Shown here: positions 9,001 to 12,000 of the stretch, piece after piece
Position numbering within the stretch: position 1 is the first letter of the stretch
Layout: every line of letters starts with the position of its first letter
Source: a virus
Lineage: Duplodnaviria > Heunggongvirae > Uroviricota > Caudoviricetes
Strand: one strand, 5' to 3'
DNA: 46,428 nucleotides
IMG/VR virus record: IMGVR_UViG_2622736468_000002
Position numbers: made by a program

Positions 9001-12000
9001 TCGATCTTGCAGAACGTCTGGCCAATTTTTTTAAGGGTGAAATCAGCGAAATGCAGATTCTTTATCCGGCACGTTTTCAATCTAGCCAAAACCAGAATGG
9101 GTTTAAACCACAGGAACAGGAGGTAAGCCGTGGGTAATCATCACTGGAAAGTGGAAAAACAGCCTGAGTGGTACGTGAAAGCTGTCAGAAAAACTATCGC
9201 GGCGTTGCCGGGGGGTTACGCTGAAGCTGCTGAGTGGCTGGATGTAACAGAGAACGCATTATTCAACCGCCTTCGTGCTGAACCGCCCCGGGAATCCTGG
9301 AGACTAAACTTCCTGAGAAAGAGGTAAACAGGATGACTAAAAATACTCGTTTTTCCCCCGAAGTCCGTCAACGGGCAGTCCGTATGGTTCTGGAAAGTCA
9401 GAGCGAATATGACTCACAATGGGCGACAATTTGTTCCATTGCTCCAAAGATTGGCTGTACGCCGGAGACTCTGCGTGTCTGGGTTCGCCAGCATGAGCGG
9501 GATACCGGGGGCGGTGATGGAGGGCTCACCACCGCTGAACGTCAGCGTCTGAAAGAGCTGGAGCGTGAAAATCGTGAACTGCGCCGCAGTAACGATATCC
9601 TTCGCCAGGCTTCCGCTTATTTTGCGAAGGCGGAGTTCGACCGCCTCTGGAAAAAATGATGCCACTGCTGGATAAGCTGCGTGAGCAGTACGGGGTCGGA
9701 CCGCTATGCAGCGAACTGCATATTGCCCCGTCAACGTATTACCACTGTCAGCAACAGCGACATCATCCGGATAAACGCAGTGCCCGTGCGCAGCGCGATG
9801 ACTGGCTGAAGAAAGAGATACAGCGCGTATACGATGAAAATCACAAGGTATACGGTGTGCGTAAAGTCTGGCGTCAGTTGTTACGGGAAGGTATCAGAGT
9901 GGCCAGATGCACTGTGGCACGTCTCATGGCGGTTATGGGACTTGCCGGTGTTCTCCGGGGTAAAAAGGTCCGTACGACCATCAGCCGGAAAGCCGTTGCC
10001 GCAGGCGACCGCGTAAACCGTCAGTTCGTGGCAGAACGACCTGACCAGCTGTGGGTGGCTGATTTTACTTACGTCAGCACATGGCAGGGCTTCGTCTATG
10101 TGGCGTTCATCATTGATGTGTTTGCCGGATACATCGTGGGGTGGCGGGTCTCATCGTCCATGGAAACGACATTCGTGCTGGATGCACTGGAGCAGGCGTT
10201 ATGGGCCCGTCGACCGTCCGGCACGGTCCATCACAGTGATAAAGGTTCTCAGTATGTATCGCTGGCCTACACACAGCGGCTTAAGGAAGCCGGATTACTG
10301 GCATCAACAGGAAGTACAGGCGACTCGTATGACAACGCGATGGCGGAGAGCATCAATGGTCTTTACAAAGCGGAGGTAATACACCGTAAGAGCTGGAAAA
10401 ACCGGACAGAAGTGGAGCTGGCCACACTCACGTGGGTGGACTGGTATAACAATCGACGATTGCTGGAAAGGCTGGGCCATACTCCTCCGGCAGAAGCAGA
10501 AAAAGCTTATTATGCTTCCATCGGAAACGATGATCTGGCAGCCTGAGTTCACAGATAAAACACTCTCCAGGAAACCCGGGGCGGTTCAGGGCGTGTGGCT
10601 CACCGTTGTGAAGGAGATACACGCAGACATTTCCCGCGCCTGACTGAGAGAGCACAGGAGCCGGAACCACAACCAGTTCGTGAAACCAGACCTGTGCGCA
10701 ATTTCTGTGTCGGCACTAACGACCCGCAGGTGATTTTGTGCCTGACTCGCCAGGCGGAAGAACTGGAGTCCAGGGGCTTATTCCGTCGAGCTGCAACGGT
10801 GTGGATGGAGGCATTCCGTGAAAGCCACTCCCAGCCAGAACGAAACAATTTTCTGGCGCATCGTGAGCGGTGCTTACGGAAAAGCAGCAAGCGCGCTGCA
10901 TCGGGTGAAGAGTGGTATCTGTCAGGGAATTACGTGGGGGCTTAATGAGTAATAAATATTGCCAGGCGCTGGTGGAGCTGCGGAACAAACCAGCCCATGA
11001 ACTGAAGGAAGTGGGCGATCAGTGGCGCACGCCGGACAACATTTTCTGGGGAATTAACACCCTGTTTGGCCCGTTTGTTCTGGATCTGTTCACTGATGGT
11101 GATAACGCCAAATGTGCCGCTTATTACACTGCGGAAGACAACGCGCTGGCGCATGACTGGTCTGAACGTCTTGCGGAGCTTAAAGGTGCTGCCTTTGGTA
11201 ATCCCCCGTACAGCCGCGCCAGTCAGCATGAGGGGCAATACATCACCGGCATGCGTTACATCATGAAACATGCCAGTGCCATGCGTGATAAAGGCGGGCG
11301 CTATGTTTTCCTGATCAAAGCTGCCACCAGCGAAGTGTGGTGGCCGGAAGATGCAGATCATATTGCTTTTATTCGCGGGCGTATTGGTTTTGAACTGCCT
11401 GCCTGGTTTATCCCGAAAGACGAAAAGCAGGTGCCAACAGGTGCTTTCTTCGCTGGTGCTATTGCTGTTTTCGACAAGACCTGGAAGGGACCGGCAATCA
11501 GCTACATAGGGCGCGATGAACTTGAGGCATGTGGTGAGGCGTTTCTGGCGCAGGTTCGCCAGCAGGCGGAAAAACTGGTCAGGGAGATGGCGGCATGACG
11601 ACGTTAACTCAATGCCAGCAGCAGGTGCTGGATATGCTGATTTCTTATCAGAAAGAACGTGGCTTCCCGCCAACCAATCAGGAGGTGGCAACCATGCTGG
11701 GATACCGTTCGGTGAATGCAGCGGTGGAGCATCTTCGCGCACTGGAGAAAAAAGGCGTCATCACGATAAAGCGTGGCGTGGCCCGGGGGATAACGCTTCA
11801 TACTGCGATGAAGGACGACGACAGCGAGGCGGTCGGGATTATCCGCGCACTGCTTGCCGGTGAGGAAAACGCAAGGCTGCGTGCAACCCACTGGTTACAT
11901 GAGAGGGGCCTGAAAGTATGAAGCTAATACTGCCTTTTCCGCCCAGCGTGAACACGTACTGGCGACACCCCAACAAAGGGGCGTTTGCTGGTAAGAGCCT

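What the first reader, a model, noticed from the sequence alone, without database searches (positions are those of the whole stretch)
10595..10945. PerC-like regulator immediately after IS629
The ORF contains LESRGLFRRAATVWMEAF, which I associate with PerC/Pch-type activators that prophages use to switch on host virulence loci. Its start is a GTG adjacent to the IS end, so expression may now depend on IS629 outward signals or a truncated start.
Basis: partly seen in the sequence, partly recalled or inferred. Interest (0 to 1): 0.4.

Follow-up and report, generated by a model that had tools for sequence, protein, structure and literature searches.

The report
IS-truncated prophage yfdN (PerC-family) remnant
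The open reading frame is the tail end of a very common prophage gene (yfdN, PerC family) whose first 46 codons, start signals and 2.7 kb of upstream prophage DNA were lost next to an IS629-type insertion sequence, so it is most likely a dead gene fragment and not a virulence switch.

Summary
A 116-codon ORF (10595-10945) starts 6 nt after a 1310-bp IS629-type element (9279-10588), carries the quoted motif, and matches Pfam PerC above threshold (35.4 bits, cutoff 22.6).

It is not a complete gene. It is codons 47-164 of a 164-aa yfdN-type prophage gene. Homology to intact copies starts at window 10589, the first base after the IS. The GTG "start" is internal codon Val49.

Compared with near-identical prophages, the window lacks 2721 bp:
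- the 3' part of ymfL
- a Rha/Ash regulator gene
- a 74-aa ORF
- the O-like replication initiator gene
- the first 46 yfdN codons with their ribosome-binding site and ATG

The IS has no target-site duplication, which fits an IS-adjacent deletion. The lost codons encode the three helices of a predicted winged-helix domain. The wing, the linker and the three-helix PerC-like domain remain.

I found no promoter-like site between the transposase gene and the ORF, and only a weak Shine-Dalgarno-like G-run.

The family is only distantly related to true LEE activators (38-39% identity to PchA/PchE over about 50 aa). It occurs in about half of complete E. coli genomes, including K-12.

Verdict: an ordinary pseudogene remnant in a degraded prophage, of low interest.

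The parts
8087..8779 (-). Prophage CI-type repressor (context: start of the immunity and early-right region)
   Evidence: Pfam Peptidase_S24 plus HTH domains. Annotated as an XRE family regulator in the near-identical O104:H4 prophage.
8877..9137 (+). Cro-like HTH gene, the first gene of the early-right operon
   Evidence: Pfam HTH_3. The same protein, WP_001191669.1, is annotated in L001 and L002.
9130..9278 (+). 5' remnant of ymfL (CII/CP76-like regulator), 49 of 185 codons, cut by the IS
   Evidence: Identical to O104:H4 ymfL up to window 9278, after which the IS begins. The intact gene matches NCBIfam YmfL and Pfam Phage_CP76.
9279..10588 (+). IS629-type insertion sequence (IS3 family, 1310 bp), apparently intact, in the same orientation as the early-right operon. 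It has no target-site duplication (left flank TGC, right flank GGG).
   Evidence: The terminal inverted repeat occurs once in the window. Pfam finds HTH_Tnp_1 in orfA and rve in orfB. Rfam finds the ALIL pseudoknot at 9614-9730. Flanks and inverted repeats were read.
10589..10945 (+). 3' remnant of a yfdN-type gene: codons 47-164 plus the stop codon. It retains the winged-helix wing, the disordered linker and the three-helix PerC-like domain.
   Evidence: 100% identical to O104:H4 yfdN (WP_001387484.1) from exactly 10589 onward. Domain boundaries come from the AlphaFold model.
10595..10945 (+). Its GTG is internal codon Val49 of the parent gene.
   Evidence: The same 116-aa ORF is called in a relative whose yfdN has a Q10 TAG nonsense codon.
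10748..10903 (+). Segment matching the Pfam PerC profile (positions 5-56 of 90). It contains the LESRGLFRRAATVWMEAF motif at 10763-10816.
   Evidence: It aligns to PchA residues 7-50 and PchE residues 1-52.
10945..11598 (+). Phage Dam methyltransferase gene. Its ATG overlaps the remnant's TAA (TAATG), so it is normally coupled to yfdN translation.
   Evidence: Pfam Dam, E=1e-45. The same 1-nt overlap is annotated in L001 and L002.

Best explanation
The ORF is a 5'-truncated pseudogene remnant. Its parent is a yfdN-type gene of a lambdoid prophage, encoding a 164-aa protein with an N-terminal winged-helix domain, a disordered linker and a C-terminal three-helix PerC-like domain. In intact phages this gene sits between the O-like replication initiator gene and dam. 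Here an IS629-type element lies where 2721 bp of the early-right operon used to be, from codon 50 of ymfL to codon 46 of yfdN. The IS is intact and has no target-site duplication. The most likely history is therefore an IS insertion followed by a deletion of adjacent DNA that left the IS in place. Recombination between two IS copies is the alternative. Shown here: the breakpoints, the lost genes, the lost start and ribosome-binding site, and the loss of helices 1-3 of the predicted DNA-binding domain. Inferred: the fragment is probably still transcribed by read-through from the prophage early-right promoter or the IS, on the way to dam, rusA and Q. Also inferred: it is not translated to a useful level, so it has no regulatory function, and the prophage can no longer replicate because its initiator gene is gone.
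For: Homology to the intact gene begins at window 10589, the first base after the IS. On the left, ymfL is identical up to 9278. The intact arrangement, ymfL-rha-hyp-HTH_36-yfdN-dam, is annotated in O104:H4 and in S88. It is also present in the closest relative, L005, which is 100% identical over 2798 nt on the right and 99.88% on the left. An intact breakpoint region is found in 2581 of 2672 matching records. Family members are typically 160-164 aa with a conserved N-terminal domain in E. coli, Salmonella, Citrobacter and Hafnia. The AlphaFold model places the break at the end of helix 3 of a winged helix. The flanks are TGC and GGG, so there is no duplication, whereas an independent IS629 insertion in the Stx2a_WGPS2 homologue has a 3-bp CAA duplication. 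No sigma-70-like site was found. The native ATG has an anti-SD duplex of -10.7 kcal/mol, against -7.2 for GTG 10595 with about 10 nt spacing. IS629-adjacent deletions that leave the IS intact are a described class (PMC9330008 section 5.2.4; PMC9943667).
Against: The remnant is 100% identical to intact alleles, so there is no decay to prove disuse. It is co-oriented with the IS transposase genes and the early-right operon, and no terminator-like site lies between them, so it is probably transcribed. The G-run of the IS inverted repeat gives a weak Shine-Dalgarno-like match upstream of the in-frame GTG. The PerC-like domain itself is complete, and PerC and Pch proteins work as stand-alone domains. 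Expression was not measured.
Confidence: 0.85

Rival explanations
1. The truncation has created a working stand-alone PerC-domain protein. In this reading, read-through transcripts from the IS629 transposase genes or from the prophage early-right promoter are translated from GTG 10595, or from the internal GTG 10694. The product would be a 116-aa or 83-aa protein that acts like PerC/Pch on H-NS-silenced host loci.
For: The ORF is in the same orientation as the IS and the operon, with no + strand terminator-like site between orfB and the ORF. GTG 10595 has a -7.2 kcal/mol anti-SD match to the G-run in the IS end, comparable to IS629 orfA (-7.1) and rusA (-7.4). The three-helix PerC-like domain is complete. 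PHROG phrog_2608 is an 83-position profile that covers only this C-terminal part, so such short forms have been annotated in phage genomes.
Against: The SD-like match has an internal mismatch and about 10 nt spacing. GTG 10694 has no SD at all (+0.3 kcal/mol). No promoter-like site was found even at a relaxed 8/12 threshold. The short forms in the databases that I examined are contig-end partials or products of nonsense mutations or deletions, not a natural architecture. The retained N-terminus would be half of a broken winged helix followed by a disordered linker.
Confidence: 0.1
2. It is a bona fide PerC/Pch-type activator of ler (LEE1), and the prophage uses it to turn on host virulence genes.
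For: The Pfam PerC match is above threshold. The motif aligns with PchA (LEKKGLYRRAAERW) and PchE (LEAKGFYRRAAARW).
Against: It scores only 35 bits and covers profile positions 5-56 of 90, against 149-153 bits with full coverage for PchA and PchE. Identity is 38-39% over 44-52 aa. The gene type is found in K-12 and in about 48% of complete E. coli genomes. Its nearest relatives here are in O104:H4 and S88, which are LEE-negative lineages to my own knowledge, not tested here. PchD and PchE, which are much closer to PerC, have little effect on LEE (PMC6265319, PMC5931665). Finally, the gene here is truncated.
Confidence: 0.03
3. The IS simply inserted between two genes. In this reading the short ymfL and yfdN forms are the native gene set of this phage, and no deletion occurred.
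For: None beyond the fact that lambdoid phages are mosaic.
Against: Both flanking reading frames stop being homologous to their full-length relatives exactly at the two IS ends. There is no target-site duplication. A 99.9-100% identical relative carries the missing 2721 bp.
Confidence: 0.01

Closest known systems
YfdN of E. coli K-12 prophage CPS-53/KpLE1 and its homologues (orf40 of Shigella phage SfV, and the homologues in mEp460, SfII, SfIV, ST64B and Stx2c/Stx2a phages). PGAP names them 'yfdN: PerC family transcriptional regulator'; PHROG family phrog_1324.
   Same: The retained 357 nt are 100% identical to WP_001387484.1 of O104:H4 and 91-96% identical at the protein level to the phage copies. 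The downstream neighbours are the same (dam, LexA-like gene, rusA), and the stop and start overlap by the same single nucleotide.
   Different: It lacks codons 1-46, which encode helices 1-3 of the predicted winged helix, and it lacks the native SD and ATG. The upstream replication-initiator neighbour is replaced by an IS. No experimentally shown function of YfdN turned up in my searches. One paper calls it only 'the K12 unique PerC homologue' (PMC5931665).
PerC of EPEC and PchA/B/C of EHEC O157:H7 (activators of ler/LEE1), with PchD and PchE
   Same: They share the first two helices of the PerC domain, including the LE.(K/R)G(L/F)(Y/F)RRAA..W motif. The Pfam PF06069 match is above threshold.
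   Different: Pch proteins are 90-104 aa stand-alone proteins that cover the whole profile at 149-153 bits. The yfdN type covers positions 5-56 at 35 bits and normally carries an N-terminal winged helix. The genomic setting also differs: pchA lies in the late or accessory region of Sp4 and pchE in a P4-like element. The yfdN type lies in the early-right operon.
IS629-associated adjacent deletions in E. coli prophages (IEE- and transposase-dependent 'type d' deletions that leave the IS intact)
   Same: An intact IS629-type copy abuts a 2.7-kb loss of neighbouring DNA with no target-site duplication. This matches the class described in PMC9330008 section 5.2.4 and PMC9943667.
   Different: Whether IEE is present in the source genome is unknown. 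Recombination between two IS copies would give the same product. This exact junction was found in none of 5426 complete E. coli genomes or the GTDB representative genomes.

Membership tests
PerC family (Pfam PF06069) | HMM match above the curated gathering score | tested here: met
   35.4 bits against a cutoff of 22.6, E=1.3e-8, residues 52-103. The intact parent scores 34.5 bits.
PerC family (Pfam PF06069) | Coverage of the whole PerC/Pch domain (about 90 positions), as in PerC, PchA and PchE | tested here: not met
   Only profile positions 5-56 of 90 are matched. PchA and PchE match positions 1-89 at 149 and 153 bits.
PerC/Pch functional group (LEE1/ler activators) | Activates the ler promoter | not testable with these tools
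   This needs a reporter assay. The literature shows that only group 1 Pch (A, B, C) activate ler, while PchD and PchE have little effect (PMC5931665, PMC6265319).
YfdN-type prophage protein (phrog_1324; PGAP 'yfdN') | High identity to full-length family members over the shared region | tested here: met
   100% DNA identity to O104:H4 yfdN over 372 nt. phrog_1324 match E=2e-50 to profile positions 62-166.
YfdN-type prophage protein (phrog_1324; PGAP 'yfdN') | Full-length two-domain architecture of about 160-164 aa, with an N-terminal winged helix | tested here: not met
   Residues 1-46 are absent. The model shows that helices 2-15, 21-27 and 33-46 are the part lost.
YfdN-type prophage protein (phrog_1324; PGAP 'yfdN') | Position between the O-like replication initiator gene and dam in the early-right operon | tested here: inconclusive
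   The downstream half of the synteny is kept, with dam overlapping by 1 nt. The upstream half is deleted and replaced by the IS.
IS629/IS1203 group, IS3 family | About 1310 bp, terminal inverted repeats, orfA and orfB with a -1 frameshift signal | tested here: met
   1310 bp. The first 14 nt of the two terminal inverted repeats are identical. Pfam finds HTH_Tnp_1 and rve. The ALIL pseudoknot scores 120 bits. 96% identity to O157 IS629.
IS629/IS1203 group, IS3 family | 3-bp target-site duplication flanking a simple insertion | tested here: not met
   The flanks are TGC and GGG. The simple insertion in Stx2a_WGPS2 has CAA on both sides. This supports a deletion or recombination event, not non-membership.
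ANR (AraC negative regulator) family, NCBIfam NF033650 | HMM match above the curated cutoff | tested here: not met
   20.8 bits against a cutoff of 32. hhalign of the YfdN alignment against Aar found nothing.

The most novel reading that the evidence does not exclude
The deletion removed the winged-helix domain and put the remaining PerC-like domain downstream of a co-oriented IS629. In this reading the IS end supplies a weak ribosome-binding site for the in-frame GTG. The strain would then make a new stand-alone PerC-domain protein, resembling PerC/Pch, that alters expression of H-NS-silenced host genes.
Probability: 0.05. Interest if true: 0.4.

Novelty: already known. Interest (0 to 1): 0.1.

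Why it matters
It matters little beyond annotation. The locus should be recorded as a pseudogene ('yfdN, missing its N-terminus) inside a replication-defective prophage, not as a virulence regulator. It is one more example of IS629-type elements eroding prophage early regions. There is also a general caution for sequence-only reading. A first-start-codon ORF next to an IS end can be the tail of a broken gene. A PerC-family motif does not by itself imply control of LEE.

Tried and rejected
1. My first reconstruction from the raw sequence joined the ymfL remnant in frame to 10589-10643 as if the IS were a simple insertion. Alignment to intact prophages showed that this frame match is coincidental and that 2721 bp are missing.

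2. I searched for the exact IS-'yfdN junction elsewhere. No place covers 80% or more of the junction query in 5426 complete E. coli genomes. GTDB representative genomes gave no exact match. The four left-junction hits are different junctions, either two-piece matches or 91.6% identical with an indel.

3. An exact-protein look-up of the 116-aa ORF found one contig. There the same ORF results from a Q10 TAG nonsense codon, not from an IS.

4. A sequence search of the intact protein against the PDB gave only chance-level hits, E of 0.36 or more.

5. ANR family link: sub-threshold HMM hits for the ORF, PchE and PchA. hhalign against Aar was negative, and the ANR papers do not mention PerC. The link is not established.

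6. Promoter search: the standard scan and a relaxed scan found no + strand candidate between 10440 and 10700.

7. An Rfam scan of 8000-12500 found only the IS3-family ALIL pseudoknot.

8. Porter et al. 2005 (PMC543544) is not held in the library.

9. My first literature search was wasted, because 'perc' as a word start matched 'perceived'.

Full report
**Observation**

The ORF at 10595-10945 (+) exists. It has a GTG start, 116 codons and a TAA stop at 10943-10945. The quoted peptide LESRGLFRRAATVWMEAF is residues 57-74 (nt 10763-10816).

Immediately upstream lies a 1310-bp IS3-family element at 9279-10588:
- Its terminal inverted repeats begin TGAACCGCCCCGGG.
- orfA is at 9333-9659 (Pfam HTH_Tnp_1) and orfB at 9656-10546 (Pfam rve).
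- The IS3-family ALIL frameshift pseudoknot is at 9614-9730.
- It is 96% identical to the IS629 copies of O157 and at best 99.7% identical to copies elsewhere in E. coli.

'IS629-type' is therefore a fair label. The GTG is 6 nt from the last IS base. Pfam PerC (PF06069) matches residues 52-103 at 35.4 bits, E=1.3e-8, against a gathering cutoff of 22.6.

**What it is**

A search of 5426 complete E. coli genomes found the 372 nt from 10589 onward in 2583 of them at 90% identity or more. In some, including O104:H4 strains, identity is 100%, and the gene is annotated 'yfdN: PerC family transcriptional regulator'.

In O104:H4 2011C-3493 the gene is 495 nt, encoding 164 aa (WP_001387484.1). It sits in this order: CI-like repressor, Cro-like gene, ymfL, Rha-family regulator, 74-aa ORF, HTH-domain protein, yfdN, dam, LexA-like gene, rusA. 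Strain S88 has the same order.

The alignments define the breakpoints:
- Identity to the intact gene begins exactly at window 10589, the first base after the IS.
- On the left, ymfL is identical up to 9278 and then the IS begins.
- Relative to the intact prophage, 2721 bp are missing, and the IS occupies their place.

The missing DNA comprises:
- ymfL codons 50-185 (CII/CP76-like)
- the Rha/Ash regulator gene
- the 74-aa ORF
- the HTH_36/DnaD_N protein gene, which PHROGs place among O-like replication initiators (phrog_270, E=1e-88)
- the first 46 codons of yfdN, with its GGGGGTG Shine-Dalgarno sequence and ATG

The closest relative I found is a Logan contig from SRR7057654. It is 100% identical over 2798 nt on the right and 99.88% identical on the left, and it still has the 2721 bp.

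The intact state is the rule. An intact breakpoint region is present in 2581 of 2672 matching records. Family members in E. coli, Salmonella, Citrobacter and Hafnia are typically 160-164 aa with a conserved N-terminal domain.

**How the deletion arose (inferred)**

The IS flanks are TGC and GGG, so there is no 3-bp target-site duplication. By contrast, an independent IS629 insertion in the yfdN homologue of Stx2a_WGPS2 is a simple insertion. Both gene halves are present there, with a CAA duplication.

An intact IS next to a deletion is the 'type d' outcome described for IS629 with the IS-excision enhancer (PMC9330008 section 5.2.4; PMC9943667). Recombination between two IS copies would give the same product, and I cannot tell the two apart.

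The junction is absent from all 5426 complete genomes and from the GTDB representatives. Together with the 100% identity of the remnant to intact alleles, this points to a recent, strain-specific event.

**What was lost from the protein**

I built an AlphaFold model of an intact family member (P0004) from a 17-sequence alignment. Mean pLDDT is 78.

| Residues | Element | pLDDT (10-residue block means) |
|---|---|---|
| 2-15, 21-27, 33-46 | three helices of a winged helix | 76-89 |
| 49-54, 57-62 | two-strand wing | 83-86 |
| 63-91 | disordered linker | 43-64 |
| 92-107, 111-124, 128-151 | three helices | 92-95, then 70 over 141-150 |

Foldseek matched about 60 residues to ArsR/SmtB, BlaI/MecI and MarR winged helices at rmsd 1.6-3 Å, with weak E-values of 0.05-0.3. 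PHROG and NCBIfam also gave weak MarR-type hits to residues 8-70.

The break after Ser46 falls at the end of the third helix, the presumed recognition helix. The remnant therefore keeps only the wing, the linker and the PerC-like domain.

**Can the remnant be expressed?**

- *Transcription.* The ORF is co-oriented with the IS and with the early-right operon, and no + strand terminator-like site lies between orfB and the ORF. Read-through transcription toward dam, rusA and Q is therefore plausible. No sigma-70-like promoter was found at the standard threshold or at a relaxed 8/12 threshold between 10440 and 10700.
- *Translation.* The native ATG has an anti-SD duplex of -10.7 kcal/mol. GTG 10595 has -7.2, from the G-run of the IS inverted repeat, with an internal mismatch and about 10 nt spacing. 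The internal GTG 10694 has none.
- *No fusion to the transposase.* The ORF is in the same frame as orfB, but two stop codons (10544, 10556) separate them.

I conclude that translation is unlikely but not excluded. This is inference and was not measured.

**Comparison with known families**

PchA (104 aa) and PchE (90 aa) of O157 Sakai match the PerC profile end to end at 149 and 153 bits. The window ORF shares 39% identity over 44 aa with PchA and 38% over 52 aa with PchE.

The yfdN type is thus a distant, two-domain branch of the Pfam family and not a Pch orthologue. It occurs in K-12 and in functional temperate phages such as SfV, mEp460, ST64B and Stx2c phages. No experimentally shown function of YfdN turned up in my literature searches. 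The literature calls it 'the K12 unique PerC homologue' (PMC5931665). It also reports that even PchD and PchE have little effect on LEE (PMC6265319).

**Verdict**

The ORF is a 5'-truncated yfdN pseudogene remnant, left by an IS629-type-associated 2.7-kb deletion in a prophage that has also lost its replication initiator gene. Both the family and the process are already known, so interest is low.

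Noticed in passing
L008:1-60, L009:1-60, L010:1-60, L011:1-60 (draft assemblies GCA_018013455.1, GCA_023879495.1, GCA_032340085.1 and Logan run ERR14942293): Contigs from unrelated draft assemblies begin 0-3 nt from the window's breakpoint, at yfdN codon 47 or 48. 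Their alleles are only 95-97% identical to the window. This may mark a recurrent repeat or IS boundary, or a mosaic junction at this site. No complete genome shows an IS629 in this orientation there.
   Followed up: partly
L005:4200-4360 (Logan SRR7057654): The closest relative of this prophage keeps the 2721 bp but has a CAG-to-TAG nonsense codon at yfdN codon 10. Gene callers there report the same 116-aa GTG ORF. The gene may already have been dead before the IS event in this lineage.
   Followed up: partly
P0009 and P0041: Other deletion products exist in the databases. One is a Cro N-terminus fused in frame to YfdN from about residue 33 (196 aa, 25 contigs). Another is a replication-initiator N-terminus fused to YfdN from about residue 57 (186 aa). 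The cro-to-yfdN stretch of these prophages seems prone to deletion.
   Followed up: no
L003:2211-3520 (Stx2a_WGPS2, O157:H7 strain 980938): There is an independent IS629 insertion in the yfdN homologue, in the opposite orientation, near codon 84, with a 3-bp CAA duplication. Both gene halves are kept.
   Followed up: yes
window 10748-10846; L006:7188-7460; L007:33366-33680: The ANR (AraC negative regulator, Aar-like) NCBIfam model gives consistent sub-threshold hits to the same two helices in the ORF (20.8 bits), PchE (17.9) and PchA (13.6), against a cutoff of 32. The ANR papers I searched do not mention PerC. hhalign with a single Aar sequence was negative. A remote PerC-ANR relationship remains an open lead.
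   Followed up: partly
window 5156-5659: A second insertion sequence, with an IS1 transposase (Pfam DDE_Tnp_IS1, E=1e-77), sits in the early-left region of the same prophage. This is further evidence of decay.
   Followed up: no
window 15980-16693: An AraC-family regulator gene lies downstream of the Q antiterminator gene. Its best NCBIfam similarity is to YdeO and GadX, well below their cutoffs. From my own knowledge, it resembles the prophage-borne acid-resistance and T3SS regulators of EHEC (PatE/Psr type). It is a more plausible host-regulating cargo gene than the yfdN remnant.
   Followed up: no
window 17459-19420: A 653-aa protein with DUF1737, SASA esterase and DUF6645 domains sits in the late region. 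This is the NanS-p-like sialate esterase type seen in Stx-phage-like prophages. I did not look for stx in the window.
   Followed up: no
window 10544-10597: The remnant ORF is in the same reading frame as IS629 orfB, separated from it by two stop codons (TGA 10544, TAA 10556). No transposase fusion is possible without double read-through.
   Followed up: yes
L007:32131-33680 (O157 Sakai Sp4): In Sakai, the true LEE activator gene pchA lies about 160 bp from a partial IS629 copy.
   Followed up: no
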